Position numbers and translations under genes: made by a program
The notes under the pieces: generated by a model
Told to the model about the DNA's origin: nothing
Databases searched by the model: none
Seen by the model: the letters and a program-made list of their open reading frames with translations, nothing else
Source: a virus
Virus record (IMG/VR): IMGVR_UViG_3300037743_000151
Coordinates: 1 to 64,000 of that record
Direction: 5' to 3' (one strand)
DNA: 64,000 bases
Shown here: positions 8,129-49,023 of the stretch, in pieces
Layout of the letters: every line of letters begins with the position of its first letter
Position numbering within the stretch: position 1 is the stretch's first letter

Positions 8129-8165
8129 CCACCCCTCCCGGCGCCGCCCCAACAAGGAGAACGTG

Positions 8166-9638
8166 ATGAGTACGAGACTGACGGAACTGTCGCCAGACCA
8201 GGTGGCGGCTCTCGCCACTACCCGCGATAAATGGCTCGCCCACGGTCTCGCGACCGGCCCCGCCGACCGTGCGGAGGCGGAGGCGGGGGTGCGTGATGCG
8301 TATCGTGCTGCTGGTTTGGAGCCGCCGCAGACTGTGATCTGGCTTGACTCGCCGATGGCTGGCGCGATCGCTGCCTGGATGTTCACGACTGCTCGGGCTC
8401 AGGTCGGGGATCAGGTCGGGGCTCAGGTCCGGGCTCAGGTCTGGGCTCAGGTCCGGGATCAGGTCTGGGATCAGGTCTGGGATCAGGTCGGGGATCAGGT
8501 CTGGGCTCAGGTCGGGGATCAGGTCCGGGATCAGGTCTGGGATCAGGTCTGGGATCAGGTCGGGGATCAGGTCGGGGATCAGGTCGGGGCTCAGGTCCGG
8601 GCTCAGGTCCGGGCTCAGGTCGGGGATCAGGTCGGGGATCAGGTCCGGGATCAGGTCGGGGATCAGGTCTGGGCTCAGGTCCGGGATCAGGTCGGGGATC
8701 AGGTCTGGGCTCAGGTCGGGGATCAGGTCTGGGCTCAGGTCTGGGCTCAGGTCGGGGATCAGGTCCGGGATCAGGTCCGGGCTCAGGTCTGGGCTCAGGT
8801 CTGGGCTCAGGTCTGGGCTCAGGTCGGGGATCAGGTCCGGGCTCAGGTCGGGGATCAGGTCCGGGCTCAGGTCGGGGATCAGGTCGGGGATCAGGTCTGG
8901 GCTCAGGTCGGGGATCAGGTCCGGGCTCAGGTCGGGGATCAGGTCTGGGCTCAGGTCGGGGATCAGGTCGGGGATCAGGTCTACAAGGCCGTACCCGGAC
9001 AGCACGACGCCGGATGGCTCTCGTTCTACGACTACTTCCGCACCCACTGCACCATCCAAGAAGCCGACCGGCTCACCGGCATGATGCGCGTCTCCCAGTC
9101 CGCCGGCTGGTGGTGGCCCTTCCAGAACGCCGTCATCCTCACCGAACGTCCCACCAGCCTCCACCGCGACGGCCAAGGCCGCCTCCACAACGAGACCGGC
9201 CCCGCTCTCGCCTACCCCGACGGGTTCGCCATCTGGGCATGGCACGGCACCCGCGTGCCGCGCGACCTCATCGAAACCAACTGGAACCTCAAACAGATCT
9301 TCGACGAACCCAACGCGGAAATCCGCCGCTGCGCCATCGAAAAAATCGGCTGGGACCAGTTCATCCAAGAGTCCGGCCTACGCAAGGTGGCCTCCTGCCC
9401 CGACCCCGGGAACGCCCCCTACCACCTCGCCCTCTACGAGCTGCCCGAGCAGCTCGACAACCTCTACGACGAGCCAGCACGCATCCTCCTCGCCGTCAAC
9501 GGCAGCCCGGAACCCGACGGCGAACACCGCCGCTTCGGCCTGCCCGTCCCCGCACACCACACCGACCCCGTCGAAGCCGCAGCCGAAATGTACGGCTGGC
9601 CCGTGGCCGCCTACCAGCAGCTCGAACACCGCCGCTGA
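8166..9638 (+). CDS. DUF6745-like protein with central 49-unit tetrapeptide repeat
   Basis: ATG 8166 after AAGGAGA RBS (GTG 8163 also possible). Conserved N- and C-terminal domains flank ([D/A]QV[G/W/R])x49. The C-terminal WWWPF...ILTERP...HNETGPA pattern recalls DUF6745 (from memory). Confidence 0.75.
8397..8984 (+). repeat. 49 tandem 12-bp in-frame repeats, consensus G[A/C]T CAG GTC [G/T/C]GG
   Basis: Read directly from the sequence. Every unit has invariant CAGGTC and GG. Only unit positions 2 and 10 vary. The last unit ends TAC. Confidence 0.95.
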
Positions 9639-10802: not shown

Positions 10803-11141
10803 TCAGGAGTCGACAGCCAGGGCAGCCGAGTGGATCGCCTCGCGGATGATGCGGGACGTCGCCTCGTCGTAGGACTTCGCGTCAGCCCCCGGCGTCTGGG
10901 TGCGTCGGTGCAGCTCGTCGATGATCGCCCGGTCGCGAACCGCCTGTTCGTAGAACTCGGGCGGCACCACCATCGCCACCCTCTTGCCGCGCTCCGTGAA
11001 TGCGCCCGGCCGCTGGCCCCAGCTGACCTCACGGATCAGCGAGGTCAGCGCGGCGCGGGCGTCGGTCATTGCCACGTCGGCGACGCCGTCGTCCTTGATC
11101 TCGATCTTCGGGTGCAGGGCCATGGCCAGAGTGTAAGTCAT
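10803..11141 (-). CDS. Phd/YefM-family antitoxin-like protein (orphan)
   Basis: VAMTDARAALTSLIREV...GAFTERGKRVAMVVPPEFYEQ matches the Phd/YefM N-terminal fold signature. ATG 11141 has a GGAAGGA RBS (alternative starts 11165 and 11123). No toxin ORF lies on either side. Confidence 0.6.
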   Translation of the reverse strand: MTYTLAMALHPKIEIKDDGVADVAMTDARAALTSLIREVSWGQRPGAFTERGKRVAMVVPPEFYEQAVRDRAIIDELHRRTQTPGADAKSYDEATSRIIREAIHSAALAVDS

Positions 11142-11143
11142 TG

Positions 11144-11166
11144 CCAATCCTTCCAATATCACCAAT
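11144..11166 (-). promoter_or_regulatory. three ATTGG (top-strand CCAAT) direct repeats at 9-bp spacing over the RBS/5' region of the Phd-like gene
   Basis: CCAAT at 11144, 11153 and 11162, inside a locally AT-richer divergent intergenic region. Confidence 0.3.
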
Positions 11167-11247
11167 CTTTAAAGCAGTATGGCAGTGCAAGCCCGACACC
11201 GCCAGACCGCAAAACGAGCCATGCCAGATAGACGAAAGGAGGACTGC

Positions 11248-12033
11248 GTGACCGACATCGTGCAGGCACCGAACACCGAGGAAGCCCGAGCCCGAGCCGA
11301 CCGCATCCGCTCCGGCATGCGCGTCCTCGCCGCGTGGCAGCAAGACGTAATCGCCGCCTACGCCGCCCGCGACTGGGACACCCTCGGCTACGAGACATGG
11401 GACGCGTACATCGACGGCGAGTACGGCGAGCACCGCGTACGACTCCCGCGCGAGCAGCGCCGCGAGATCGTCGCCGGGATGTCCGCCGCGGGCATGTCCA
11501 CCCGAGCTATCGGGGCCGCAGTCGGTGTCCACCACGACACCGTGAACCGCGACGTTCAGGCGACTGTCGGAAATACGACAGACGACCAGCCGCGCACGGT
11601 GCTGTCCCTCGACGGTCGCGAGCGCCCGGCCACCCGTCCTGCGGTCGACGAGAACGTATGGATCGAGCCCGGCACGGACGAGGTGGTCGACGCCGAACTC
11701 GTCGACGAGCCCGCGCGCGCCGAGCCCTCCAGGCCGAAGCGTCGCCCCTTCCCCGAGGCGTTCACTGACGCCTCCCATGACCTCGCCCGCATCGCGGAAC
11801 GCCTCGACCGCCTGCGCGACGACGACCGGTTCACCCGCAACCGGCACCAGACCCACCACAGGGCCTCCGACATCGTCCGAGCCCTGGACTCCGTCACCCA
11901 ACTCGCCGTCGACATGGACCTGTCCACGGCTGAGACAAGCGAAGAGGCCCGCCGCTGGTGGGCGACGAGCCTCCACAAAATCTCCGACGCCCTGCGCGAC
12001 GTCGCCAACTCCCTCGAACAGGAGCACTCATGA
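11248..12033 (+). CDS. helix-turn-helix DNA-binding protein
   Basis: GTG 11248 after GAAAGGAGG RBS. The segment GMSTRAIGAAVGVHHDTVNRDV is HTH-like. Confidence 0.6.
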   Translation: MTDIVQAPNTEEARARADRIRSGMRVLAAWQQDVIAAYAARDWDTLGYETWDAYIDGEYGEHRVRLPREQRREIVAGMSAAGMSTRAIGAAVGVHHDTVNRDVQATVGNTTDDQPRTVLSLDGRERPATRPAVDENVWIEPGTDEVVDAELVDEPARAEPSRPKRRPFPEAFTDASHDLARIAERLDRLRDDDRFTRNRHQTHHRASDIVRALDSVTQLAVDMDLSTAETSEEARRWWATSLHKISDALRDVANSLEQEHS

Positions 12034-12983: not shown

Positions 12984-13925
12984 ATGGCCTGGTTCGCCCT
13001 CGATGACGGGTTCGACACGCACCCCAAGGTGCGCAAGGCGGGCAACGCCGCCGTCGGTCTCTTCGTGCGCCTCGGCGTCCACGCCACCAGGCACCTCACC
13101 GAGGGCCACCTCGACGGCGACATCGTCCGCCAGTACGGCACCGAGCCCAACGTCCGCAAGCTCATCGCCGTCGGAATGCTCCACCCGTCCGGGCACACCT
13201 GCCCGCGGTGCGAGCAGCCGGCCGACGGCGACTACGTCATCCACGACTACCTCGACTACAACAAGTCCCGCGCGCAGATCGAAGCCGCCCGCGAGGCGGC
13301 CCGGAAGCGGCAGCAGAAAGGCCGCGACAACGCCCGCTCGAACCGGAATCGCGCTGGAAACGGCTCGGATTCGGGCTCGATTCGGAGCGGAAACGGATCC
13401 GAATCGGAGCGGAATCGGACCCGAAAAGACCCCCTGTTTGAGGACTCCACCGCAGGTCAGGAAGACCTGTCACGGCGTGACACCCATGAGGGTGCAACGG
13501 TTGTCCCCTCCCCTCCCCTCCCCTCCCATAACTACGACGGGGCTGAGGTAGATGGGGGATCTACCGGTAGTAGGGCCGCTGATCTTGACGCTTACGCGCC
13601 CACACCCATCGAGGTCGACGGCTTCCAACTGACCGACTCAATGCGCCGCTGGTCCGCCGCCACCTACCCCGGACTCGACATCGACCACGCCACCGCCCAG
13701 TTCATCTCCCACTACCGCTCCACCGGCGCCCGCCGGAAGTCGTGGCCCGACGCCTGGCAGAAGTGGATCCGCGACGACGCCAAAAAGGCCGCCGAGCGCC
13801 GCCCATACGGCACGTCGAACGTCATCGCCCTCCCCGGCCAGCACCAGCCCCTCACCGGCACCGACGCGAAAGTCGCCGGCTGGGCAGCCATCGCCGACCA
13901 ACTCCGCGAGCAGGGCTCAGCATGA
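12984..13925 (+). CDS. putative replication organiser / DNA-binding protein
   Basis: The N-terminus MAWFALDDGFDTHPKV... is typical of actinophage replisome-organiser-like proteins (from memory). Low-complexity linker, then a conserved C-terminal domain. Function uncertain. Confidence 0.45.
   Translation: MAWFALDDGFDTHPKVRKAGNAAVGLFVRLGVHATRHLTEGHLDGDIVRQYGTEPNVRKLIAVGMLHPSGHTCPRCEQPADGDYVIHDYLDYNKSRAQIEAAREAARKRQQKGRDNARSNRNRAGNGSDSGSIRSGNGSESERNRTRKDPLFEDSTAGQEDLSRRDTHEGATVVPSPPLPSHNYDGAEVDGGSTGSRAADLDAYAPTPIEVDGFQLTDSMRRWSAATYPGLDIDHATAQFISHYRSTGARRKSWPDAWQKWIRDDAKKAAERRPYGTSNVIALPGQHQPLTGTDAKVAGWAAIADQLREQGSA
13344..13418. repeat. five iteron-like CGGAWTCG motifs inside the linker-coding part of the putative replication gene
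   Basis: CGGAATCG 13344, CGGATTCG 13366, CGATTCG 13378, CCGAATCGG 13399, CGGAATCGG 13410. Confidence 0.5.
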
Positions 13926-21982: not shown

Positions 21983-22141
21983 GTGACCCGCCGCCGCACC
22001 ACCACCCACCGCATCGGCCTACACAACCCGCTCGGACGCTTGGGCTTCACCGTGCTGGCGGCATTCGCACTCCTCAACGGACTCCTACTGCCCGGCCTCA
22101 TCTGCACCGCCATCGCCATCTACGCCTGGAGGAACCGGTGA
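21983..22141 (+). CDS. small membrane protein (52 aa)
   Basis: My own translation from GTG 21983. Basic N-terminus followed by two hydrophobic helices. GTGA overlap with the next gene. Confidence 0.35.
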   Translation: MTRRRTTTHRIGLHNPLGRLGFTVLAAFALLNGLLLPGLICTAIAIYAWRNR

Positions 22142-23205
22142 AGAAACTCACCGGAGGACAGCGCACCGTCCTCGCCCTCACCACGATCCCCATGATCGCG
22201 GTCGGGATCGGCGGGGCCATCGGCACCTACGCCAACGCCGCCTCCGTCCTCCACCGCAAAGAGACCGCCCTCGGCGTCGTCGCGGCCGGCGAAGGCGCCA
22301 CCCTCGTCGCCGCACTCGTCATGATCGTCGTGACGATGCTCGGGCAGAGCGCACCGGCCGTCGTGCGCGCAGCACTCTGGCTCCTCCCCGCCACCGCCTC
22401 CGTCATGGGCCTCGCCATCGCCCCCACCCTCCGCGAGGCCGTCGTCTTCGCCCTCACCCCCCTCGCCATGACCGCCAGCGCCGAGGGCGTTTCCTTCCTC
22501 GCCCGCCGGATCGTCGTGCACCGCACCGGCGTCGACATCGAGGCGCAGCAGCGGAACGCCTCCACGTTGCGGCAGATCGCCTACCACCGGGCGCGCGCCG
22601 AACGGCACCCGTGGAAGTGGGTACGCAGGCGGTCAACGCTGAAGGTGTGGCGGCTCCTCGGCCACGCGGGCGACGGTGACGCGCAGCTGGGCGCCGGGCT
22701 CATGGTGGTGCAGCGAGCCCGACTCACCGAGGGCGCCAGCGATGCGCTTGGTGAGCTCCTCAGCGGCAGCCCGGCTCAGCTTGAGCTCACCGCGGCTCAG
22801 CCCCCTGTGAGCCCTGAGCCTGAGCCCACCGACTTCAACGAAGTCGCCGAGACCGCGATCCACGTCGCCACGCCCGAGCCCCTCAGGGATCCGACACCGG
22901 TACCAGTCCTTGACACGGACGTCCTCCGCACCATCTCTGACCTGCCCGTCTCACGTGAGCCCGGCTTGAGCCAGGCTGAGCCAACCACCGTGAGCCGCGC
23001 TGAGCCGAGCCCCGAGCCCGCGCCTGAGCCAGAGATCAACGAGCAGGAACGCCAAGTCCTCGAACTCGCCAACCGGCTCAGAAACGGTGAGCCGCTCACC
23101 AAGACCACCGCCGCCCAGATCCTCGCCGTGAGCCCGGCCACCGCCGGCCGACGACTCAAGGAAGCCCGCGGCCGAATCAACGACGGAACGGGGCTGTACC
23201 TATGA
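22138..23205 (+). CDS. polytopic membrane protein with C-terminal HTH (DUF2637-like N-terminal domain)
   Basis: Four hydrophobic helices in the first 130 aa, a Pro/Glu-rich linker, and a C-terminal HTH-like segment (LTKTTAAQILAVSPATAGRRLKEAR). Confidence 0.65.
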   Translation: MKKLTGGQRTVLALTTIPMIAVGIGGAIGTYANAASVLHRKETALGVVAAGEGATLVAALVMIVVTMLGQSAPAVVRAALWLLPATASVMGLAIAPTLREAVVFALTPLAMTASAEGVSFLARRIVVHRTGVDIEAQQRNASTLRQIAYHRARAERHPWKWVRRRSTLKVWRLLGHAGDGDAQLGAGLMVVQRARLTEGASDALGELLSGSPAQLELTAAQPPVSPEPEPTDFNEVAETAIHVATPEPLRDPTPVPVLDTDVLRTISDLPVSREPGLSQAEPTTVSRAEPSPEPAPEPEINEQERQVLELANRLRNGEPLTKTTAAQILAVSPATAGRRLKEARGRINDGTGLYL

Positions 23206-39918: not shown

Positions 39919-41331
39919 ATGGGCACCAACGACAGGGCGACAGTAGCGGCACGCGCCGCCGCCCTCCTCGGCGCCCAACTCACCCCACGCTGGACACCAC
40001 TACCCCACCAAGTACCGCCCCCCGGCAACTGGTATGGCTGGCTCCTCCTCGCCGGCCGCGGCGCCGGCAAGACCGACGCCTGCGCCGAATACATCGCCCG
40101 CCACATCGCCGGACCACCCTGCCTCCCGGGCCCGGTACCCCACTGGGTCGGCATCATTGCGCCCACCCAGGGCGACGCCGTCACCGCCTGCGTGTCCGGG
40201 CCGTCCGGTATCAAAGCCCATGACCCCACCGCCGTCGGCCCGATCACCACGGCAGGCGGCACCGTCGTCCGCTGGCCCAACGGGAGTCAGGCCAAGCTGT
40301 ACGGGGCGAATAGTCCGGAAGATGTGGAAAGGCTCCGCGCTGGGGGCAATACCTGCGTGGCCTGGTTGGAGGAATTTGCCGCGTGGCGGCACATGCAGGA
40401 CGCCTTCGACCAACTCCGCTTCGGCCTCCGCTCCGGTCCGCGCCCACACTGGGTCGCCTCCACCACCCCGAAGCCCAAACCCCTACTGAAGCGCCTCATG
40501 CAAGGCGAGATCCCGAACGTCGTCACCACCACGGCGACCATGTACGACAACCCACATCTCCCGCAGCACATCCGCGACATGCTCGAAGACGCCTACGCGG
40601 GAACCGACCTCGGCGAGCAGGAGCTGTACGGCCGACTCCTCGACGAGATCAAGAACGCCCTATGGCGAAGGAAGTTCCTCGCCGCCGGCCGCATGCGCCT
40701 CGACGACCTGCCGGACCTCATCCGCCGAACGGTCGGCGTCGACCCTTCCGGCGGCGCAGGGGAGCAGGGCATCGTCGTCACCGCGAAGTCGGGGCTTCTG
40801 CTACCCGGACTGCTGCCCGGCCCCGAGCTGGACCCCGACGAACCGGCCCCGGTCGGTGCACCACGCCCGCAGCCGCACGGCTTTGTCCTGGACGACCGGT
40901 CGTGCCAGCTCCCGCCGGAGGGCTGGGGGCAGCGCGCGGTACAGGCCGCGATCGACTGGGAGGCCGAGGACGTGGCGGTAGAGGTCAACTACGGGGGGGA
41001 CCAAGCGATCGCCGTGATCCGCACAGCGATGGAGAAACTCGGGGTGGATATCCCGATCCGGAAGGTGCGCGCGTCGCAGGGCAAGGCGATCCGTGCACAG
41101 CCAGTGGCCGCGCTCAGCGCTCAGGGCCGGTGGCATCACGCGGGCACATTCCCGGAATTGGAGGACCAGCTAGCCACGTGGTACCCGGAGTTGGGCTGGT
41201 CGCCCGATCGCCTCGACGCACTCGTATGGGGACCATGGCATATGAAACTCGTGGGCACGATGACGCACGGCCAGGGTTCGTTGGGCGGGGATCTGGCCAG
41301 AAAGCAGATTGTCGGGGGGCGGCTACGGTGA
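39919..41331 (+). CDS. terminase large subunit
   Basis: ATG 39919. Walker A LLLAGRGAGKTD, WLEEFA (Walker B-like), and a C-terminal RNase H-like nuclease region with acidic residues; 470 aa. Positioned ahead of the portal. Confidence 0.8.
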   Translation: MGTNDRATVAARAAALLGAQLTPRWTPLPHQVPPPGNWYGWLLLAGRGAGKTDACAEYIARHIAGPPCLPGPVPHWVGIIAPTQGDAVTACVSGPSGIKAHDPTAVGPITTAGGTVVRWPNGSQAKLYGANSPEDVERLRAGGNTCVAWLEEFAAWRHMQDAFDQLRFGLRSGPRPHWVASTTPKPKPLLKRLMQGEIPNVVTTTATMYDNPHLPQHIRDMLEDAYAGTDLGEQELYGRLLDEIKNALWRRKFLAAGRMRLDDLPDLIRRTVGVDPSGGAGEQGIVVTAKSGLLLPGLLPGPELDPDEPAPVGAPRPQPHGFVLDDRSCQLPPEGWGQRAVQAAIDWEAEDVAVEVNYGGDQAIAVIRTAMEKLGVDIPIRKVRASQGKAIRAQPVAALSAQGRWHHAGTFPELEDQLATWYPELGWSPDRLDALVWGPWHMKLVGTMTHGQGSLGGDLARKQIVGGRLR

Positions 41332-41336
41332 CGGGC

Positions 41337-41585
41337 ATGAGCATCTGGAGAACGGTCGGCCACGACGGGCCGGAGGTCGTTGGGATCCCAGACGAGACGG
41401 ACGCCGTGCACTATCGAGGCGGCGGGGAGGCCACCGCCACCGTCGACGTCGCCGTGACCAGCATGCACGGCGGGGTGCGCCTCGGTATCGAGTTCGATGG
41501 CTCGACGAAGGATGTCCTCCTCGACCGGGAGAACGTGGCGCTGTTGCGTGACCGGCTGACGGTCGTACTGGAGGGTGAGTCGTGA
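41337..41585 (+). CDS. hypothetical protein
   Basis: ATG 41337 (GTG 41328 would give a GTGA overlap with the terminase stop); 82 aa. Confidence 0.5.
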   Translation: MSIWRTVGHDGPEVVGIPDETDAVHYRGGGEATATVDVAVTSMHGGVRLGIEFDGSTKDVLLDRENVALLRDRLTVVLEGES

Positions 41586-42016
41586 GTCTGTGGTTGCTGC
41601 TGCTCGTGATGGCGCTCGCGGTGTACCGGCTTACCCGCTTGGTCGTGGCTGACACGTTCCCGCCGGTGCTGTGGCTGCGTGACCGGCTTGTCGGTGGGTG
41701 GCGTGAGCCGACGATGAAGGAGCAGCATCACGATGCGTTCCCGACCGGGGAGGTCGAGGAGGGCTGCTTCAAGAGCATTCCAAACCTGGGCATGTTCGGG
41801 CTGCTCGACGGTGAGTTGCAGATTTACGGCCGCCGGTGGAAGTGGTCGCCGTTCTGGTTGGCTGATCTGTTGTCGTGTCCGTTTTGCGCGTCGGGGTGGA
41901 TTGCTGTCGGGGTGACGGCGGGTGTGTGGGCCACGGTCGGTCTGCCGGTGCCGCTGCTGGTGTGGCTGGCGGTGTGGGCGGTGGGCGGCCTGTTGGCGTC
42001 GCAGGAGTGGGCGTGA
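41582..42016 (+). CDS. DUF1360-like membrane protein
   Basis: GTGA overlap. VYRLTRLVVADTFPP ... LLSCPFCASGWIAV matches the DUF1360 pattern (from memory). Four hydrophobic helices. Confidence 0.6.
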   Translation: MSLWLLLLVMALAVYRLTRLVVADTFPPVLWLRDRLVGGWREPTMKEQHHDAFPTGEVEEGCFKSIPNLGMFGLLDGELQIYGRRWKWSPFWLADLLSCPFCASGWIAVGVTAGVWATVGLPVPLLVWLAVWAVGGLLASQEWA

Positions 42017-42099
42017 CGCCGGAACGCGGGCCGGAGACGGGCCCGTAGCATTCAGGGTGTAGGAGCCGGGCCTTCGGGTTCCGGGGTGGTGGCGCACAG

Positions 42100-42130
42100 G
42101 GGCCGTCCGCAGTGGGCATGCGGACGGCCC
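42100..42130. terminator. hairpin terminator (11-bp stem)
   Basis: GGGCCGTCCGC (42100-42110) pairs with GCGGACGGCCC (42120-42130). Confidence 0.6.
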
Positions 42131-42154
42131 TCGCTGCTGCTCGGGGTGTGGGAA

Positions 42155-42180
42155 GGGGCCGCCTCCGTAGAGACGGCCCC
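42155..42180 (-). other. hairpin of module A1
   Basis: GGGGCCG (42155-42161) pairs with CGGCCCC (42174-42180). It directly abuts the ACCAAGAAGAGCC box. Confidence 0.5.
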
Positions 42181-42233
42181 ACCAAGAAGAGCCACGCCAC
42201 GCCCTGCCTTGCCTCGCCCTGCCGAGCCATGCG
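42181..42233 (-). repeat. module A1: box ACCAAGAAGAGCC followed by GCC every 5 nt (G-rich sense on the minus strand)
   Basis: GCC at 42191, 196, 201, 206, 211, 216, 221 and 226 (8 of 8), then GCG at 42231. Confidence 0.85.
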
Positions 42234-42253
42234 CTGGTCAGCTTAACGGCGAA

Positions 42254-42275
42254 GGGCTCCACCGAAGTGGAGCCC
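42254..42275 (-). other. hairpin of module A2 (UUCG loop in minus-strand sense)
   Basis: GGGCTCCAC (42254-42262), loop CGAA, GTGGAGCCC (42267-42275). Confidence 0.6.
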
Positions 42276-42358
42276 ACCAAGAAGAGCCTTGCCATACCAC
42301 GCAATGCCGAGCCGAGCGCTGCCCAACCGAGCGCTGCCTTGCCATGACCAGCCAAGCG
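42276..42358 (-). repeat. module A2: box ACCAAGAAGAGCC followed by 15 phase-locked NNGCC units
   Basis: Phased triplets from 42286 to 42356: 8 are exact GCC and the rest differ at one base. Confidence 0.8.
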
Positions 42359-42394
42359 GAGGCTAGCCCGAGGGCTTCACAGTACCGCCAGAGC

Positions 42395-42450
42395 CGTCAT
42401 TCTGAATACATCTCTTCTTTCGGAGTGACACATGACGGTATATATTCGCG
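42395..42450. promoter_or_regulatory. AT-rich core between inverted arrays (candidate divergent promoters)
   Basis: CATTCTGAATACATCTCTTCTTTCGGAGTGACACATGACGGTATATATTCGCG is the most AT-rich stretch I noticed in the window. Possible leftward promoter: -35 TTCAGA (42406-42401) and -10 TACTGT (42384-42379). Confidence 0.35.
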
Positions 42451-42469
42451 TGGTGCCACCGGCACGCTC

Positions 42470-42582
42470 GGCGTGGCACTGCCCGGCAAGCTGAGGCATG
42501 GCATGGCCTGGCGGGGCACGGCGGGTCATGGCTAGTCAAGGCCAGGCGGGGTAAGGCACGGCGCGGCTCTTCTTGGCTTGGT
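42470..42582 (+). repeat. module A3: (GGCNN) array plus box GGCTCTTCTTGG (42565-42576), immediately upstream of the RBS of gene 42614
   Basis: Exact GGC at 16 of 23 positions spaced exactly 5 nt apart (42470...42580). Confidence 0.85.
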
Positions 42583-42613
42583 TCCCACCACCACACGGCA
42601 CGGAGGACACCGA

Positions 42614-43186
42614 ATGCAGTTCCGCATCACCATCACTGGCACCGCCGAACTCCTCATGCACAACGCCCGCTTGTCCAACCCCATTGACCCCGCAGCCAAA
42701 GCGATGAAGGCCGTCACCTCCAAGCGCGTCAAGACCGACGACGACCACGAGGAGTTGGCCCGCCTCGAACACCTCGGCTCGCTTTACTACGACCCCGAGA
42801 TCGGACCGTTCGTCCCCGGCCAGAACATCGAACGCGCTCTCGTCGACGCCGCCAAGGTCACCAAGTCCGGCGTCAAGGTCACACGCGGCGTGTTCATCTC
42901 CACCAACGTCAACCCCCTCGCCTACAAGGGGCCGCGCGACATCGACGGCCTGTGGGCAGACGAGAACTTCCGGCACATGGCATCCGTCAAGGTCCAGCAG
43001 AACCGCGTGATGCGCTGCCGCCCCATGTTCCGGACCTGGCGCACCGAGGCGGAAGGCACACTGGACACCCGAGTTCTGTCCCTCGAAGAACTCCAGGGCA
43101 TCGCGGACACGGCAGGAGCGATGATCGGTCTCGGTGACTACCGCCCCCGCTACGGCCGCTTCACTGCGGAGGTAACCAAGCTGTGA
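42614..43186 (+). CDS. hypothetical protein (190 aa) of the array-flanked cassette
   Basis: ATG 42614 after GGAGGA RBS. Native-looking GC-rich codon usage. The N-terminal beta-strand-like MQFRITITG and the C-terminal glycine-rich IGLGDYRPRYGRF weakly recall RAMP/RRM-fold proteins. No firm family. Confidence 0.6.
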   Translation: MQFRITITGTAELLMHNARLSNPIDPAAKAMKAVTSKRVKTDDDHEELARLEHLGSLYYDPEIGPFVPGQNIERALVDAAKVTKSGVKVTRGVFISTNVNPLAYKGPRDIDGLWADENFRHMASVKVQQNRVMRCRPMFRTWRTEAEGTLDTRVLSLEELQGIADTAGAMIGLGDYRPRYGRFTAEVTKL

Positions 43187-43695
43187 ACGGCGTCAAGACC
43201 CGCGTGGACGTCCTGTACGAGCTGTTCCAGCGTGCAGACCTAGTCACTTACGAGCAGGCCGCAGAAGCCCTTGGGCTCGACCCGATACAGGACCGGAAAG
43301 CCATCCGGGACACCATGGGACGCGTCAGAAGGAAGCTGCTCGCCAGGGATGGGCGGGCGCTCCGTTCCGTCCCAGACGTCGGCTACCGGATCGCTGAACC
43401 GAACGAGCACATCACCCTGTACCGCGAGCGTAAGAAGCGTGGGACAAATCAGCTCGTGACGGGTCGCGACGAGCTGAAAGGCACTGACCTTTCGAGCCTG
43501 ACGCAGGAGGGCCGGGATGCTGTCCTGGCGGAGAGTGTCGCGGCATCTCGGATCATCGACTTCATCGTGTCGACGGATCGTCGCTTGCGGAAGCAGGAGG
43601 CGAAGATCGATGAGATCAAGGGTGAAGTGACCCGCAACGCCGAGGAGTCTGCGGAGATCAAGAAACGCCTCACCCAGTTGGAACAGCCTGGGTAG
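43183..43695 (+). CDS. winged-helix (OmpR/PhoB-type-like) DNA-binding protein with C-terminal coiled coil
   Basis: GTG 43183 (GTGA overlap). VRRKLLARDGRALRSVPDVGYRIAEP resembles the OmpR-type wing. The C-terminal 60 aa are heptad-like. It uses codons rare in high-GC actinomycetes (CTA, ATA, AGA, AGG, AAT, AGT). Confidence 0.6.
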   Translation: MNGVKTRVDVLYELFQRADLVTYEQAAEALGLDPIQDRKAIRDTMGRVRRKLLARDGRALRSVPDVGYRIAEPNEHITLYRERKKRGTNQLVTGRDELKGTDLSSLTQEGRDAVLAESVAASRIIDFIVSTDRRLRKQEAKIDEIKGEVTRNAEESAEIKKRLTQLEQPG

Positions 43696-43702
43696 AGGTT
43701 GC

Positions 43703-43794
43703 GGCCGGACATGGCGTGACGTGTCCTGGCACGGTGCGGCCGGACATGGCGGGGCAAGGCCGGGCGGGGCGCGGCGCGGCGGGGCTTCTCTGGG
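43703..43794 (+). repeat. module A4: (GGCNN) array plus box GGCTTCTCTGGG (43783-43794)
   Basis: Exact GGC at 12 of 17 phased positions (43703...43783). Internal 16-nt direct repeat GCGGCCGGACATGGCG at 43701 and 43736. Confidence 0.85.
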
Positions 43795-43795
43795 T

Positions 43796-43821
43796 GGGCC
43801 CCCACCTTCGGGTGGGGGCCC
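43796..43821 (+). terminator. 11-bp GC hairpin with UUCG tetraloop following array A4, 75 nt upstream of the portal start
   Basis: GGGCCCCCACC (43796-43806), loop TTCG, GGTGGGGGCCC (43811-43821), then CCCTTCGCC as in module A2. Confidence 0.65.
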
Positions 43822-43895
43822 TTCGCCATGCCCGGAATGATCTTCTCGGCCGCGCTCTTACCCTCCCCTCGCAGACCGCGAACAGGGAGACCCGG

Positions 43896-45677
43896 ATGGC
43901 CTGGTGGCACACCTTCACCCGACGCGGCACACCCACGCCCACACCCCTCCCCACCCACACCGAACAGCAACCCAACGCAATCACCGCCGCCGCAGCACCC
44001 GTCTCCAGCCCCCGCACCGACCTCATCCGCAACACCGACGGCTGGCAAGAAGAAGTCTGGGGATTCCACGACACCCTCGGCGAATTCCGGTACGCCACCG
44101 ACTGGGAAGCCAAACGCTTCTCCCGCGTCCGCCTCTACGCCGCCAAGCTGGAGCCAGGGGCCGACGAGCCCGTACGCGCCAAGGCCGGAACCGCCGTCGA
44201 CCTCATGACGGCGTTCGCTGGTGGCCCCGCCGGACAAGCGCAGATCATGGGCGGCCTCGCCACGCAACTACGGGTCCCCGGCGAGGGCTACCTCATCGTC
44301 GAGAGCGTGAGCGGTATCGAGCAGTGGTCGGTGCGCTCCATCGACGAAGTCCGTGCCGCACGCCAGCGGTACGAGGTCATCGACGAGAACAGCCCGCAGT
44401 CCGGCAACAACTGGCGCCCCCTCGCCCCCGACTCGATGGCACCGATCCGGGTATGGCGGCCGAACAAGCGCTGGCACCACATCGCCGACAGCCCCACCCG
44501 CGCCGCGCGTTCCACGATGCGGGAACTGGAGTTGGTGAACCGGCACATCGTTGCCCAGTACCTGTCGCGGCTCGCGTCCGCCGGTGTCGTCATGTTCCCG
44601 TCGGAGGTCACCTTCCCGCAGAAGGAGGAGTTCGCCGACGCGCCGGACCCGTTTGTCGCCGAGTGGATCGAGAACGCGAGGGTCGCGATCGATCAGCCGG
44701 GCACCGCCAGTGCCGTGATCCCGATGCCGATCAAGGTGCCTTCCGAGCTCGTCGAAAAGATCAAGCATCTCGACTTCACCCTGAAGATCGACGAGAAGAT
44801 CATCGAGAAGCGGGACAGCGCCATCAAGCGCCTCGCCTCCCAGCTCAACGTGCCCGCCGAAGTCCTACTCGGCATGGGCGATTTGAACCACTGGAACGCC
44901 TGGAGCAGCGACGAAACCAGCCTCAAAGTCGACGTCGCCCCCGACGCCGAACTCATCTGCCAGGCCATGACCACCGGCTACCTCCAGCCCCGCCTCAAAG
45001 CATCCGGCGTCGAAGACTGGGCGAACTGGGTCATCTGGTACGACATGTCAGAACTGACCCTGCGCCCCGACCGGTCAGACGACGCCATCGCCCTGTACGA
45101 CCGCCTGGAACTCAACGGCGCAGCCCTCCGCCGCGAAACCGGATTCAACGAAGCCGACAAGCCGACCAACGAGGAACTCAAAGAGCAGGCCCTCAAGGTC
45201 ATCATCCACACCCTGCCGTCCGGCGCCGGTAGCGCGCTCACCGAACTCATCGGCGAGCAGGTCACCATCGCCGCGACCGCACCCATCGCCCCCGGCGAAC
45301 AACCCGAGCCGGAGCCCCCGCCGGAAGACCGCACACCACCCGACCCCGACATTGCACGCGAGGCGACCGCGCAAGCCCGCGAGGACCGCATGGTTGCGCA
45401 GGCCCGCGAGCTGCACGCCGTCCGGTTCACGGTCGGCCGGCCTACGGAGCTGCTGCACCCGGCGGCGTGTTCGCAGCACGCCTACTCCTGCCCGTTCACG
45501 CACGCCGCATTGAAGCTCGCCGACCTGCCGAGGCCCGGGACGTCGGGTGTGTATGAGGCGCGCCTGGATCCGTTCGGCCGGTTCACGATCGGCCGGCATG
45601 CGCCGCTGATGGACACGTCCGGCTTCTTCTCGACGATGACTCGGAGCAGTAATGGATTCGCTCGCAGCCGCGGCTGA
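43896..45677 (+). CDS. portal protein
   Basis: ATG 43896 after AGGGAGA RBS; 593 aa. Assigned from position (after terminase, before the MuF/protease gene), size and acidic/helical composition typical of actinophage portals. Confidence 0.7.
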   Translation: MAWWHTFTRRGTPTPTPLPTHTEQQPNAITAAAAPVSSPRTDLIRNTDGWQEEVWGFHDTLGEFRYATDWEAKRFSRVRLYAAKLEPGADEPVRAKAGTAVDLMTAFAGGPAGQAQIMGGLATQLRVPGEGYLIVESVSGIEQWSVRSIDEVRAARQRYEVIDENSPQSGNNWRPLAPDSMAPIRVWRPNKRWHHIADSPTRAARSTMRELELVNRHIVAQYLSRLASAGVVMFPSEVTFPQKEEFADAPDPFVAEWIENARVAIDQPGTASAVIPMPIKVPSELVEKIKHLDFTLKIDEKIIEKRDSAIKRLASQLNVPAEVLLGMGDLNHWNAWSSDETSLKVDVAPDAELICQAMTTGYLQPRLKASGVEDWANWVIWYDMSELTLRPDRSDDAIALYDRLELNGAALRRETGFNEADKPTNEELKEQALKVIIHTLPSGAGSALTELIGEQVTIAATAPIAPGEQPEPEPPPEDRTPPDPDIAREATAQAREDRMVAQARELHAVRFTVGRPTELLHPAACSQHAYSCPFTHAALKLADLPRPGTSGVYEARLDPFGRFTIGRHAPLMDTSGFFSTMTRSSNGFARSRG

Positions 45678-48600
45678 CGGCTCGCACATGTCGGGCGCGA
45701 TGGTGGCGCTGATGCCGACGCCGGAGGATGCGGCCCGGCTGGCGATCGAGGGCGGCGAGGACGCGGAGCAACTGCACCTGACGCTGTACTTCCTCGGCGA
45801 CGACGGCGACGCGTGGACCGAGGACCAGCAAGCAGAGCTGATCGGCAGCCTGCGAGCGCTCGCCGCCTCCCAACTATCCGGGCCCATCACCGGGTTCGCG
45901 TTCGGTGCGAACCACTGGAACGCAGGCAGCGACTCCCCGTCGTGGGTGTGGGCCGTCGGCGACGACCGCGACCGGGAGGCCGACGCACCCTCACTGGCCG
46001 CCGCGCGCACGGTCACCACGATGGCGCTGGAGGACATCCACGAGCGGCCGTATCTCCCTGTGCAGCACTCGCCTTGGGTGCCGCATATCTGTGCCGCGTA
46101 CTCCGATGAGCTGGACCTCATCATCGCCCTGGAGGAGCGCCTCGGACCGGTCGTCTTCGACCGGATCCGGGTGGCGTTCGCCGGGGACTACACCGACATC
46201 CCCCTCGGCGGCGCGGTGACTGCGGCGGCCGAGTGCACTTGCCCTCCGCAGGCTGCAGCCGAATCGGACAGCGATCCGGACTGTCGGCACCATGCGTACA
46301 ACATCCTGATCGCCGCCGGGGCGTCACTGCGTCGTCAGCCCACCGAGTTGGAGCTCGCCTCCCGCGTCGACTTCGCCGCCATGGACAAGGCCTGGCACGA
46401 AGCCGTCGACAGCACCGTCGAAGCCTGGGCCGACATCCAGACCGCGATGCGAGCCGAGGTCACCGCCAGCATCCAGGCCGCAGCCGAAGCCGACGACTTG
46501 GACAGCCTCGACGGCCTCACCATCGACACCGCTGACGGCGCCGCCCTCCTGATCGCCCGCATGATCGCCTACGCGCGGGAGGCAGGCGAGCAGCAGCAGG
46601 CCGAGGCCGAAGCGCAGGGCGTCAGCGTCCCGGAGTGGTCGCTGGACGATGAGGCGATCACCGCAGCTGCGATCCGGGACCGGCTGCGGCAGATCGGCCG
46701 GACGGCCGCGCGGGTGCTGGGTGTCGGGCTGGTGCAGTCCGCGGTCCGGCAGGCGATGCGCGTATGGGGCTCCGGGTCGGCGCAGCAGGTGGCGGCGCAG
46801 GTCGACGAGCACCTTGCCGGGCTGTCGGGTGCGGCTGTCGAGGAGCAGGTTGGCGGGGCGATGTCGGCGGCCCAGAACGAGGGGCGCCTCGCGGTGCTCG
46901 CGGTCGCGCCGGCCGCCCTGCACGTGGCCACGGAGGCGCTCGACCTCAACTCATGTAAGCCCTGCCGCGACATCGACGGCACCGAGTACGACACCCTCAC
47001 CGCGGCCCGTACCGCTTACCCGTCCGGCGGCTACACGGGCTGTCTCGGCGGCGCGCGCTGTCGGGGCACGCTCGTCACCGTGTGGCCTCAGGACAGCGAG
47101 CAGGCCGCCGCCGGAATGATCTTGGCTGCGAGCGCGGCCACAATACCGCCGACCGACCACGAGCAAGGAGGCGGCAGCGTGCCGTACAGCATCGTGCAAG
47201 ACCACCCGGACTGCGGTGCCGACAAGCCGTGGGCCGTCACCAAGGACGCCGACAACAGCCTGATGGGCTGCCACGACAGCGAGGCCGCAGCCGAGGAGCA
47301 GCGCGCCGCCCTGTATGCCGAAGAGGGCGGCATGCCCAACGACATGGACAAGCCCGACGACGAGGACATGGACTACGCAGGCAAGACCGCCCCCTGGCGT
47401 GGCCCCCTCGCCATCGAAGGACAGGTCACCGGCGACGGCCGCGAATTCGCCCCCGAAGCCCTCACCTGGGCCGAACTCCCCGTACCACTCCGGTGGAACA
47501 AGGAAGACTCCCACGGCGGAGAAGCCCGCACCATCGCAGTCAACGTGGGCCGCATCGACAAGATCTGGCGCGACGGCAGCCTCATCATGGGCGAAGGCGT
47601 TCTCGACCTCTCCGACGACGACGGCCGCCGCGTCCACGCCAAGATCGAAGGCAAGTTCCTCCGCGGCGTGTCCATCGACGCCGACTCCATCGCCGACGCC
47701 GACGTCGAGTTCGTGTGGCCCGAAGACGCCAACGCCGGAACCGAAGAAGGCGAAGAGGGCGACCTGCTGGAGATGCTGTTCGCCCAGCCGGAGAAAATGA
47801 TTTTCCACGGCGGACGCATCCGCGCCGCGACCCTCGTCGACATCCCCGCCTTCGCCGAGGCGTACATCGCACTCCTCGACGAGGCCGGCGCGGTCGTGGC
47901 CGGAGGGCAGCCCATTGGCGAGGCCGCGCTTCAGCTGGCGTTGCAGGAGATGGGTGCGGTAGGCACCCACACCACCGCCACCTCCGATGGGCCCTGGGAC
48001 GCAGGCGTGAACGAGAAGCGCATCGACGGCCCGCTGACGGTCGCGAAGGCGCGGGCGGCGTACGGCTGGTACGACGGCGCCGCAGTCTCCGACGGCGAAC
48101 TGCCGAAGTCCGCGGCAAAGTTCCTGCACCACGAGATCAACGCCGACGGAACCGCGGGCGCGGCGAACCTTGCCGCCTGCTCGGCATCCATCGGCGCCTT
48201 GCACGGCGCCCGCGGCGGCACGAGCATCCCGGACGCGGACCGGCGCGGCGTGTACGACCACGTTGCCGGGCACCTGCGGGACGCGGGGCAGGAGCCGGAG
48301 CCGTTCCGTTCCCTGCGTTCCGTCACCGCCAGCGCTCCGGCCTCGCATCCGGCGATGACCGGCATGTGGAAGCCTCCCGCCGAGTGGTTCAGTGATCCGG
48401 ATCTGCCGTTCCACTGCGGGATCGTCGTCACCGACCAGGGGCGCCTGTACGGGCATGCGGCGCCGTGGGGCGCCTGCCATATCGGGTTCGACGGCGAGTG
48501 CGTCACCGTCCCGAGGGAGAGTGAGCACTCGCACTACATGACCGGTGAGACGGTCTGTGACGACGGGTCGCGGGTGGCGGTCGGTCAGATCACTGTGGGG

Positions 48601-49023
48601 ACGGGGCATGCGCCGCTGCATTTCGGGGCGCAGCCTGCGGCGGAGCACTACGACAACACGGGCACCGCGGTGGCGGATGTCGCGGTCGGCAACGACAAGC
48701 ACGGCATTTGGGTCGCGGGTGCGATCCGTCCGAACGCCGACCCTCTGAGTGTGTACGAGCTGCGGGCATCCGGGCGGGTGTCGGGTGACTGGCGGCGTAT
48801 CGGCGGCCAGCTGCGCATGGTCGGACTGCTCGGGGTCAACGTCGCCGGGTTCCTGGAGGAGGCGAAGATGCGGACGTTGGTTTCCGCTGGGCGGCCTCAG
48901 GCGTTGGTGGCGGCGGGTGTTCCGAAGCAGCGGTGGGCCATGTCGAAGGACGAGATGGAGCGTCAGGCCGTGCGGGTCGTGATGCGGATGCTCAGCCGTC
49001 GCGTGCACCCGGGAAGGGGGTGA
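45652..49023 (+). CDS. polyprotein: 2H-phosphoesterase-like domain + MuF-like head morphogenesis domain + prohead protease-like domains
   Basis: 1123 aa. The N-terminus has HLTL (H42) and PHICAAY, which are 2H HxT/S-type motifs. CKPCRDIDGTEYD...GCLGGARCRGTLV is MuF-like. ELPVPLRWNKEDSHGG...VGRIDKIW...RGVSIDAD is S78-like. The C-terminal YGHAAPWGACHIGF...GIWVAGAIRP...SGDWRRIGG resembles actinophage capsid maturation proteases. Confidence 0.7.
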   Translation: MDSLAAAADGSHMSGAMVALMPTPEDAARLAIEGGEDAEQLHLTLYFLGDDGDAWTEDQQAELIGSLRALAASQLSGPITGFAFGANHWNAGSDSPSWVWAVGDDRDREADAPSLAAARTVTTMALEDIHERPYLPVQHSPWVPHICAAYSDELDLIIALEERLGPVVFDRIRVAFAGDYTDIPLGGAVTAAAECTCPPQAAAESDSDPDCRHHAYNILIAAGASLRRQPTELELASRVDFAAMDKAWHEAVDSTVEAWADIQTAMRAEVTASIQAAAEADDLDSLDGLTIDTADGAALLIARMIAYAREAGEQQQAEAEAQGVSVPEWSLDDEAITAAAIRDRLRQIGRTAARVLGVGLVQSAVRQAMRVWGSGSAQQVAAQVDEHLAGLSGAAVEEQVGGAMSAAQNEGRLAVLAVAPAALHVATEALDLNSCKPCRDIDGTEYDTLTAARTAYPSGGYTGCLGGARCRGTLVTVWPQDSEQAAAGMILAASAATIPPTDHEQGGGSVPYSIVQDHPDCGADKPWAVTKDADNSLMGCHDSEAAAEEQRAALYAEEGGMPNDMDKPDDEDMDYAGKTAPWRGPLAIEGQVTGDGREFAPEALTWAELPVPLRWNKEDSHGGEARTIAVNVGRIDKIWRDGSLIMGEGVLDLSDDDGRRVHAKIEGKFLRGVSIDADSIADADVEFVWPEDANAGTEEGEEGDLLEMLFAQPEKMIFHGGRIRAATLVDIPAFAEAYIALLDEAGAVVAGGQPIGEAALQLALQEMGAVGTHTTATSDGPWDAGVNEKRIDGPLTVAKARAAYGWYDGAAVSDGELPKSAAKFLHHEINADGTAGAANLAACSASIGALHGARGGTSIPDADRRGVYDHVAGHLRDAGQEPEPFRSLRSVTASAPASHPAMTGMWKPPAEWFSDPDLPFHCGIVVTDQGRLYGHAAPWGACHIGFDGECVTVPRESEHSHYMTGETVCDDGSRVAVGQITVGTGHAPLHFGAQPAAEHYDNTGTAVADVAVGNDKHGIWVAGAIRPNADPLSVYELRASGRVSGDWRRIGGQLRMVGLLGVNVAGFLEEAKMRTLVSAGRPQALVAAGVPKQRWAMSKDEMERQAVRVVMRMLSRRVHPGRG

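What the first reader, a model, noticed from the sequence alone, without database searches (positions are those of the whole stretch)
42100..42460. AT-rich core with a probable leftward non-coding transcript built from two array-box-hairpin modules
Arrays A1/A2 and A3 are inverted relative to each other around 42395-42450, the most AT-rich stretch I noticed in the window (it includes TATATATT). Read on the minus strand from this core, the sequence runs as follows:
- a plausible promoter (-35 TTCAGA 42406-42401, 16-nt spacer, -10 TACTGT 42384-42379)
- (GGCNN)15, the GGCTCTTCTTGG box, and a UUCG hairpin
- (GGCNN)9, the box again, and a hairpin
- an 11-bp terminator hairpin (42130-42100)

This roughly 280-nt region has no RBS-preceded ORF. 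That layout is what a decoy or sponge RNA for an array-binding factor would look like. It would compete with the mRNA-borne arrays A3 (leader of the cassette) and A4 (leader of the portal).
Basis: inference. Interest (0 to 1): 0.7.

Follow-up and report, generated by a model that had tools for sequence, protein, structure and literature searches.

The report
Phage VIPR guide-RNA array, self-regulated
The GGCNN arrays are almost certainly guide RNAs (vrRNAs) of a phage VIPR system, an RNA-guided DNA-silencing system first described in 2026, and the AT-rich core between them holds a site that one of these guides appears to use to switch off its own operon.

Summary
Within 64 kb, 5-nt-periodic GGC arrays occur only at four places. 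Each ends in a GGCTCTTCTTGG-type box. A1 and A2 lie on the minus strand at 42194-42368, and each is followed by a UNCG hairpin.

The sponge/decoy interpretation is not supported. The gene just right of the core (42614-43186) is a Vipr protein: E 3.4e-34 to PDB 36pp "SUSP1 Vipr protein", with the RNA-contact residues conserved. The next gene is a Vap1 homologue (hhalign 96.5%). The arrays meet the published definition of vrRNAs: GGY/NN repeats plus an invariant 3' tail, flanking vipr. In relatives the GGY positions are 87% identical and the NN positions 32%.

A1 and A2 are therefore most likely two divergently transcribed guide-RNA minigenes, each with a promoter, repeats, box and terminator. 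The same layout recurs in four Streptomyces-type relatives.

No foreign target was found with the exact-match scans available.

One result appears to be new. The core site 42415-42429, next to the vipr promoter -10, pairs with units 2-6 of A3 under the VIPR 1-nt-skip rule. In six loci all 60 cells pair and 5 of 10 pairs show compensatory changes, which suggests autorepression.

Verdict: a new member of a known kind.

The parts
42100..42130 (.). 12-bp GC-rich hairpin between the convergent DUF1360 gene (+) and the minus-strand vrRNA array; probable bidirectional or back-up terminator
   Evidence: Fold -28.5 kcal/mol, z = -4.9. Conserved in L137.
42155..42180 (-). Tail hairpin of vrRNA A1 (11 bp, UACG loop)
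   Evidence: Same hairpin in L137 and L169. Covariation in the tail-hairpin family.
42182..42193 (-). Tail box GGCTCTTCTTGG of vrRNA A1 (clade consensus GGC-NN-YTC-WK-GG)
42194..42238 (-). vrRNA A1 repeat tract: 9 GGYNN units with NN = AG AT TC AG GA AA AG GT GT
42240..42245 (-). -10-like hexamer TAAGCT, putative own promoter of vrRNA A1
   Evidence: A TANNNT hexamer follows internal tail hairpins in 11-12 of 12 modules in relatives, against a 1.4% background. L169 has TACGCT at the same place.
42254..42275 (-). Tail hairpin of vrRNA A2 (9 bp, UUCG loop)
   Evidence: Identical in L169.
42277..42288 (-). Tail box GGCTCTTCTTGG of vrRNA A2
42289..42368 (-). vrRNA A2 repeat tract: 16 units, 10 of them GGY, the rest matching GGC at 2 of 3 positions
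42379..42406 (-). Putative promoter of vrRNA A2: -35 TTCAGA at 42401-42406 and -10 TACTGT at 42379-42384
   Evidence: The hexamer positions hold TANNNT in L137 (TAGTGT) and L169 (TAAGGT) while the spacer varies. Inference only; not called by the sigma-70 consensus scan.
42415..42429 (.). Self-target site TTCTTTCGGAGTGAC in the AT-rich core. It is gapped-complementary, under the 1-nt-skip rule, to NN of A3 units 2-6 and lies 11 nt upstream of the + strand -10.
   Evidence: Best match in the whole window. 60 of 60 cells paired and 5 of 10 pairs with compensatory changes in six loci; 0 of 500 shuffles reach this.
42441..42446 (+). -10 TATATT of the vipr operon / vrRNA A3 promoter
   Evidence: TATATTC is conserved in L137, L138 and L169. 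Inference.
42465..42576 (+). vrRNA A3: 20 units plus the box at 42565-42576, forming the 5' leader of vipr. Units 2-6 (42470-42494) are the self-guide segment.
42614..43186 (+). vipr gene (190 aa), a minimal RAMP-type RNA-binding protein
   Evidence: phmmer E 3.4e-34 to PDB 36pp_D 'SUSP1 Vipr protein'. 37% identity to SUSP1 agp039. Contact residues conserved.
43183..43695 (+). vap1-like accessory gene (170 aa, winged-helix-like)
   Evidence: hhalign 96.5%, E 8.4e-10 against SUSP1 agp038. Shared VGYR motif. Weak Trans_reg_C hit.
43698..43821 (+). vrRNA A4: 17 units, box GGCTTCTCTGGG at 43783-43794, and an 11-bp UUCG hairpin at 43796-43821. It lies between vap and the portal gene (ATG at 43896).

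Best explanation
The region 42100-42460 is the left arm and the control region of a type II-like VIPR (Viral Interference Programmable Repeat) locus. The locus is inserted between the terminase/DUF1360 genes and the portal gene of a Streptomyces-type phage.

A2 (42289-42368) and A1 (42194-42238) are two guide-RNA (vrRNA) minigenes transcribed leftward. Each is made of a -10-type promoter, GGYNN repeats, a conserved box (GGC-NN-YTC-WK-GG) and a UNCG terminator hairpin.

By homology with the SUSP1 system, one Vipr protomer (gene at 42614-43186) binds each GGY. The resulting filament presents the NN dinucleotides, which pair with double-stranded DNA while skipping every third base. Binding silences transcription of the target, most likely a competing phage or prophage.

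Shown here: homology of Vipr and Vap, the repeat anatomy, conservation of the scaffold against turnover of NN, covariation in the tail hairpin, and recurrence of the divergent layout.

Inferred: transcription start sites, one versus two transcripts, and the identity of the targets.

The AT-rich core carries the divergent promoters. It also carries, at 42415-42429, a 15-bp site matching units 2-6 of vrRNA A3 under the same code. This most likely lets Vipr-A3 repress the vipr promoter (negative autoregulation).
For: Vipr:
- E 3.4e-34 to the PDB chain 'SUSP1 Vipr protein'.
- 37% identity over 186 aa to SUSP1 agp039.
- H16, K32, R136, D175, Y176 and R177 align with the SUSP1 contact residues H17, K33, R138, D177, W178 and R179.

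Vap1:
- hhalign 96.5%, E 8.4e-10.

Arrays:
- The four arrays are unique in the window and flank vipr as in SUSP1.
- Across relatives, GGY positions are 87% identical and NN positions 32% (alignment).

Tail:
- The box recurs in 12 loci.
- In the tail hairpin, 7 of 10 pairs show compensatory changes.

Layout:
- Divergent minus-strand modules upstream of vipr occur in L137, L144, L169 and L170.
- A TANNNT hexamer follows internal hairpins.

Association of arrays with Vipr:
- 82 of 120 IMG/VR contigs retrieved by the pattern (GGCNN)7GGC alone encode a Vipr homologue.

Self-targeting:
- No full-length self-target, as the preprint reports for other VIPR systems.
- The short self-site shows perfect covariation.

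Mechanism of the family: bioRxiv 10.64898/2026.04.26.720920 and 10.64898/2026.04.26.720927.
Against: - There are no expression data. Promoters and RNA ends are inferred, and the generic sigma-70 scan finds no promoter.
- No plausible foreign target was found for A1-A4. Only exact-match scans were possible. Hits for A1 fell in low-GC contigs or in a proteobacterial TonB-receptor gene and are judged to be chance.
- A2 is fairly degenerate (10 of 16 GGY).
- The tail is a box plus a simple hairpin, not the pseudoknot described for SUSP1.
- Divergent orientation of vrRNAs is not mentioned in the text of the preprint that I could read.
Confidence: 0.87

Rival explanations
1. Decoy or sponge RNA. The minus-strand arrays have no DNA target. 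They only titrate the array-binding protein away from the A3 and A4 leaders, tuning expression of the cassette and the portal gene.
For: No foreign target was found for A1 or A2. A3 does sit in the vipr leader and A4 sits just before the portal gene. Any extra vrRNA will compete for Vipr.
Against: NN positions turn over freely between close relatives while the scaffold is conserved. This is the signature of programmable guides. A sponge needs only the GGY positions and would tolerate, but not drive, such a pattern. A1, A2 and A4 have the same build, and the homologous SUSP1 RNAs have been shown to be DNA guides.
Confidence: 0.05
2. Decayed or relic guides. A1 and A2 are leftovers of a rearranged vrRNA array and are no longer expressed or functional.
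For: A2 has only 10 of 16 clean GGY units. The closest relative, L137, lacks the A2-tail / A1-head junction.
Against: Tails, hairpins and -10-like hexamers are intact and conserved in L169, which has different NN. The preprint describes internal degeneracy as common in functional vrRNAs.
Confidence: 0.05
3. A DNA-level element. The inverted arrays around an AT-rich core could be protein-binding repeats on DNA, such as a packaging (pac/cos) site or a replication origin next to the terminase gene.
For: The position between terminase and portal, the inverted symmetry around an AT-rich core, and the 5-bp periodicity.
Against: The same arrays travel with vipr-vap into unrelated genomic contexts: next to a DNA polymerase gene, among tail genes, and in prophages. 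Every array is co-oriented with a tail hairpin that shows RNA-type compensatory changes. The repeat phase carries hypervariable NN.
Confidence: 0.02

Closest known systems
Type II VIPR system of Escherichia phage SUSP1 (Vipr, Vap1, vrRNAs); bioRxiv 10.64898/2026.04.26.720920 and 10.64898/2026.04.26.720927
   Same: Homologous Vipr (37% identity, contact residues kept) and Vap1. A vipr-vap two-gene operon flanked by long intergenic regions. vrRNAs built of GGY/NN pentamers with an invariant 3' tail. One vrRNA upstream and at least one downstream of the genes. Phage-encoded. No full-length self-target.
   Different: Y is almost always C (GGC) rather than T. The tail is a YTC-containing box plus a UNCG terminator hairpin instead of a pseudoknot. 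Two extra vrRNAs are transcribed divergently as separate promoter-guide-terminator units. Arrays reach 16-20 units. Units 2-6 of the vipr-proximal guide match the operon's own promoter region. The host is a high-GC actinobacterium.
Class 1 CRISPR-Cas crRNA-Cas7 (RAMP) filaments
   Same: A RAMP-fold protein polymerises along a guide RNA and periodically flips out bases with a thumb. Recognition of DNA is RNA-guided (as described in the preprints).
   Different: There is no CRISPR repeat-spacer array, no cas1/cas2 and no adaptation module. The guide is non-contiguous: 2 of every 5 RNA bases pair with 2 of every 3 DNA bases. The outcome is silencing rather than cleavage.
Autoregulatory guides of CRISPR systems: the long tracrRNA (tracr-L) of Cas9, and Cas-regulating CreR RNAs of type I/V systems
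   Same: A natural guide with only partial complementarity directs the effector to the promoter of its own operon, giving negative feedback without destroying the target.
   Different: Here the putative self-guide is the 5' five units of an otherwise ordinary vrRNA, and pairing follows the gapped 1-nt-skip code. No experiment exists.
TRAP (trp RNA-binding attenuation protein) binding sites in Bacillus (from my own knowledge)
   Same: Trinucleotide repeats with 2-nt spacers in an RNA leader, followed by a terminator hairpin, each triplet bound by one protein subunit.
   Different: TRAP sites are (G/U)AG repeats bound by an 11-mer ring and regulate attenuation. Here the repeats are GGC, no TRAP homologue is present, and the neighbouring protein is a Vipr.

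Membership tests
VIPR system | A Vipr protein (about 20 kDa, minimal RAMP homologue) is encoded at the locus | tested here: met
   gp190 (42614-43186): E 3.4e-34 over 184 aa to PDB 36pp_D 'SUSP1 Vipr protein'. 37% identity to SUSP1 agp039.
VIPR system | Residues that read GGY and the skipped base are present (SUSP1 H17, K33, R138, D177, W178, R179) | tested here: met
   H16, K32, R136, D175 and R177 are invariant in the alignment, and Y176 replaces W178, aromatic for aromatic (residue roles).
VIPR system | An adjacent vap accessory gene (a DNA-binding type in type II) | tested here: met
   gp170 overlaps the vipr stop codon. hhalign of 15 actinobacterial homologues against SUSP1 Vap1 gives 96.5%, E 8.4e-10. 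Weak winged-helix hit.
VIPR system | vrRNAs: at least 4 (typically 9-16) YNNGG / GGYNN tandem repeats in the intergenic regions flanking vipr | tested here: met
   Four arrays of 9, 16, 20 and 17 units. These are the only such arrays in 64 kb.
VIPR system | GGY conserved and NN hypervariable among close relatives | tested here: met
   Pairwise identity is 0.87 at GGY positions and 0.32 at NN positions, in positionally equivalent arrays of loci whose Vipr proteins are 82-93% identical to gp190.
VIPR system | An invariant, structured 3' tail after the repeats | tested here: met
   The conserved box GGC-NN-YTC-WK-GG is followed by a hairpin in which 7 of 10 pairs show compensatory changes. The structure differs from the SUSP1 pseudoknot.
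VIPR system | vrRNAs are expressed as small RNAs of about 100 nt that co-purify with Vipr | not testable with these tools
   No transcriptome or biochemistry is available. Promoters and terminators are only inferred.
VIPR system | NN dinucleotides match DNA targets under the 1-nt-skip rule | tested here: inconclusive
   Met for a short self-site: 10 of 10 NN bases, with covariation in six loci. No foreign target was found for any guide, but only exact-match scans were possible.
VIPR system | Encoded by a phage or provirus | tested here: met
   Terminase, portal, major head protein, replication initiator and recombinase genes surround the locus.
CRISPR-Cas | A repeat-spacer array with an adaptation module (cas1/cas2) | tested here: not met
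   No such repeats appear in the tandem-repeat output. The neighbouring genes are vipr, vap and phage structural genes.
Protein-sponge sRNA (CsrB/RsmZ type) | Multiple GGA motifs in hairpin loops that titrate a CsrA-family protein | tested here: not met
   No Rfam family matches 40000-46000 at E <= 1. The motif is GGC in unstructured 5-nt register, and the partner protein is a Vipr.

The most novel reading that the evidence does not exclude
Units 2-6 of the vipr-proximal vrRNA (A3, 42470-42494) form a dedicated self-guide. Through only five repeat units (10 bp of gapped pairing) this segment directs Vipr to 42415-42429, over the -35/spacer region of the vipr promoter in the AT-rich core. The VIPR locus would then be negatively autoregulated, and the divergent vrRNA promoter 9 bp away might be co-regulated. 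Neither VIPR preprint mentions this. If true, it would also be an independent, purely comparative confirmation of the 1-nt-skip code in a distant clade, and it would set an upper bound on the minimal functional guide length.
Probability: 0.6. Interest if true: 0.7.

Novelty: new member of a known kind. Interest (0 to 1): 0.55.

Why it matters
VIPR was described only in 2026 and studied in two gamma-proteobacterial systems. This locus shows the same machinery in a high-GC Streptomyces-type phage, with a different guide architecture: separate promoter-guide-terminator minigenes, some of them transcribed divergently, each closed by a simple box-plus-hairpin tail.

The guide-to-promoter covariation gives a directly testable autoregulatory circuit. 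It also offers a natural example of how few repeat units may be enough for binding, which is relevant to understanding and engineering this small RNA-guided DNA binder.

Tried and rejected
- **Rfam.** Nothing at E <= 1 in 40000-46000.
- **Megablast of the region against phages.** No match.
- **Box-plus-array pattern.** No hit in IMG/VR or in GTDB genomes, so the exact tail is specific to this clade.
- **TRAP-like attenuation, G-quadruplex, nut/boxA-like antitermination and pac-site ideas.** I considered these from memory. I dropped them once the neighbouring protein proved to be a Vipr and the literature search found the VIPR preprints.
- **Foreign-target search under the 1-nt-skip rule.**
  - Self-scan of the window at all skip lengths gave only background.
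  - A1 patterns hit low-GC contigs and a proteobacterial TonB-dependent receptor gene, judged to be chance.
  - A2, A3 and A4 patterns gave no exact hit in IMG/VR. A2 also gave none in GTDB genomes or JGI metagenomes.
  - A pseudo-peptide tblastn for A2 found nothing.
  - All these scans required exact matches, so targets with mismatches would have been missed.
- **Is promoter self-targeting general?** A scan of 146 VIPR-type loci showed no significant excess of perfect 5-unit hits overall. L144 and L170 lack the site. An extra IMG/VR scan added no new haplotype.
- **Box and ribosome-binding site.** Pairing of the box CUCUUC with the vipr Shine-Dalgarno sequence in the A3 leader is no better than in shuffled sequence.

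Full report
**1. The observation**

GGC triplets at a strict 5-nt period are concentrated at only four places in the 64-kb window:
- A1, 42194-42238 (-)
- A2, 42289-42368 (-)
- A3, 42465-42564 (+)
- A4, 43698-43782 (+)

A1, A2 and A3 end in an exact GGCTCTTCTTGG box. A4 ends in GGCTTCTCTGGG. After A1, A2 and A4 comes a strong UNCG-loop hairpin, and a further 12-bp hairpin lies at 42100-42130.

The stretch 42390-42445 is the second most AT-rich 56-nt window of the whole sequence. Minus-strand ORFs across the region lack the GC3 > GC1 > GC2 pattern of real genes here. No Rfam family matches.

**2. What it is**

*Context.* The surrounding genes are a large terminase (39778-41331), a DUF1360 membrane protein (41582-42016), two small genes (42614-43186 and 43183-43695), then portal, head-maturation and major capsid genes. 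The rest of the window is also phage.

*The pattern is widespread.* A DNA pattern of eight GGCNN units retrieved at least 120 IMG/VR contigs of 39-76% GC, with similar non-coding arrays.

*Literature.* A full-text search then found two 2026 preprints describing VIPR systems. According to these:
- A small RAMP-like protein, Vipr, polymerises on vrRNAs made of alternating GGY/NN pentamers followed by an invariant structured tail.
- The NN dinucleotides pair with double-stranded DNA while every third target base is skipped.
- Binding silences transcription of competing phages, satellites and prophages.

*Evidence that this locus is a VIPR system.*
- gp190 matches the PDB chain 'SUSP1 Vipr protein' with E 3.4e-34 over 184 residues.
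- gp190 is 37% identical to the SUSP1 gene product flanked by that phage's GGTNN arrays.
- gp190 keeps the residues reported to contact G1, G2, Y3 and the skipped base.
- gp170 belongs to the same family as SUSP1 Vap1 (hhalign 96.5%, E 8.4e-10).
- 82 of the 120 contigs found by the array pattern alone encode a Vipr homologue.

The four arrays are therefore vrRNAs of a type II-like VIPR locus. The 'box plus hairpin' is this clade's 3' tail.

**3. Comparative anatomy**

Close Vipr homologues (82-93% identity) occur in Streptomyces genomes and soil metagenomes.

- L137 (Streptomyces sp. ME08-AFT2) is syntenic with the window.
- Divergent, minus-strand array-box-hairpin modules upstream of vipr recur in L137, L144 (four modules), L169 (two modules with the same tails as the window) and L170 (four modules).
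- Across positionally equivalent arrays, the GGY positions are 87% identical and the NN positions 32%. This is scaffold conservation with guide turnover (also visible).
- In the tail hairpin, 7 of 10 pairs show compensatory changes.
- Within about 6-30 nt after internal tail hairpins there is a TANNNT hexamer in 11-12 of 12 modules, against 1.4% of random 25-nt windows. In the window this is TAAGCT at 42240-42245. TANNNT is the actinobacterial -10 consensus (my own knowledge).

I conclude that A2 and A1 are probably two separate promoter-guide-terminator minigenes rather than one 280-nt RNA. This step is inference.

**4. Mechanism and rivals**

*Most likely mechanism (confidence 0.87).* Leftward transcription yields two vrRNAs. 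These are coated by Vipr, one protomer per GGY, and guide it to foreign DNA through their NN dinucleotides.

*Sponge hypothesis.* It is not excluded, but it is disfavoured. NN hypervariability with scaffold conservation is what programmable guides show, and all four RNAs have the same build.

*DNA-level roles (pac site or origin).* These are unlikely. The arrays travel with vipr-vap into many unrelated contexts, and the hairpins show RNA-type covariation.

*Targets.* I could not identify natural targets.
- No self-match reaches beyond background for full-length guides. This is consistent with the preprint's report of no self-targets at 80% or more NN match.
- Exact-pattern scans of IMG/VR, GTDB genomes and JGI metagenomes gave nothing, or only implausible chance hits.

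**5. A feature that appears to be new**

The first units of A3 are conserved between the window and L137. This is unusual, because NN is otherwise hypervariable.

[quoted passage not shown] The site is 42415-42429 (TTCTTTCGGAGTGAC), 11 nt upstream of the conserved plus-strand -10 TATATT (42441-42446). It pairs with the NN of units 2-6 (GGCGT GGCAC TGCCC GGCAA GCTGA, 42470-42494).

*Covariation in six loci (window, L137, L138, L169, L168, L140).*
- All 60 guide-site cells are Watson-Crick.
- 5 of the 10 pairs show compensatory double changes, and none shows a one-sided change.
- 0 of 500 shuffles reach these values.
- Sliding the partner columns drops pairing to 30-62%.

*Interpretation.* A relation between a 3-nt-periodic DNA site and a 5-nt-periodic RNA cannot be an ordinary hairpin. 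The VIPR code is the only known mechanism that explains it. Because the site overlaps the -35/spacer region of the vipr promoter, the simplest reading is negative autoregulation. This would be analogous to autoregulatory guides in CRISPR systems (my own knowledge). Neither preprint mentions autoregulation.

*Limits.*
- The feature is restricted to a subclade. L144 and L170 lack it.
- A scan of 146 loci gives no general excess, although L069 has a 12/12 six-unit hit in the same geometry.
- There is no experiment.

**6. Novelty and verdict**

The family is known, from the 2026 preprints. This locus is a new member with its own architecture: GGC repeats, a box-plus-terminator tail, divergent minigenes and arrays of 16-20 units. 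The reading as a non-coding RNA bound by a factor is right, and the sponge mechanism is not supported. The putative promoter self-target is the most novel element and is directly testable.

Noticed in passing
L138 2700-2900; L139 2690-2880; L140 2815-2870; L168 540-600; L169 545-600; L122-L125 (Gordonia and Mycobacterium phages MakoManhole, LittleE, Trine, prophiBWHA-1): In many actinobacterial VIPR loci, successive same-strand vrRNAs are separated by a tRNA-like element instead of a hairpin. The element has an acceptor-like stem plus a T-arm (GGTTCGAnTCC). ARAGORN does not call it a tRNA, and it scores only sub-threshold against the tRNA-like mascRNA model. This suggests release of guides by RNase P or RNase Z. 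The shared motif GGGTGGATGGT also opens the SUSP1 tail. The main text of the preprint does not mention tRNA.
   Followed up: partly
window 8163-9638 (tandem repeat 8395-8981): An ORF holds 49 tandem copies of a 12-nt unit encoding the tetrapeptide (G/W/R)(D/A)QV, followed by a globular C-terminal domain. Only weak PHROG hits of unknown function.
   Followed up: no
window 13344-13426, inside ORF 12984-13925: Iteron-like 11/22/33-nt repeats (CGGAATCGGAGCGGAAACGGA...) lie inside the gene for a replication-initiation protein (phrog_2447). This is possibly the phage origin.
   Followed up: no
window 11126-11181: The most AT-rich stretch of the window (39% GC) lies between divergent genes 10803-11165 (-) and 11179-12033 (+). 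It is probably an early or immunity control region.
   Followed up: no
window 45652-49023: A 1123-aa protein downstream of portal combines N-terminal hits to RNA-ligase-type PHROGs with MuF/portal-associated and head-maturation-protease families. This is an unusual fusion.
   Followed up: no
L069 (reverse strand) about 2177-2300: In an unrelated IMG/VR VIPR locus, six consecutive vrRNA units (NN GC AG TT GG GT AG) match 12 of 12 bases of a site 72 nt upstream, in the same inverted geometry as the window's self-site and upstream of a TATGAT -10-like element. Promoter self-targeting may therefore occur in other clades.
   Followed up: partly
L141-L143: Some close relatives (Vipr 87% identical to gp190) have no upstream vrRNA at all, only a TATATTC promoter and a short leader. 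Their guides all lie downstream as tandem promoter-guide-terminator units.
   Followed up: partly
window 22808-23030: A cluster of TGAGCC-containing 6- to 12-nt repeats lies inside ORF 22138-23205 (phrog_16651, unknown function).
   Followed up: no
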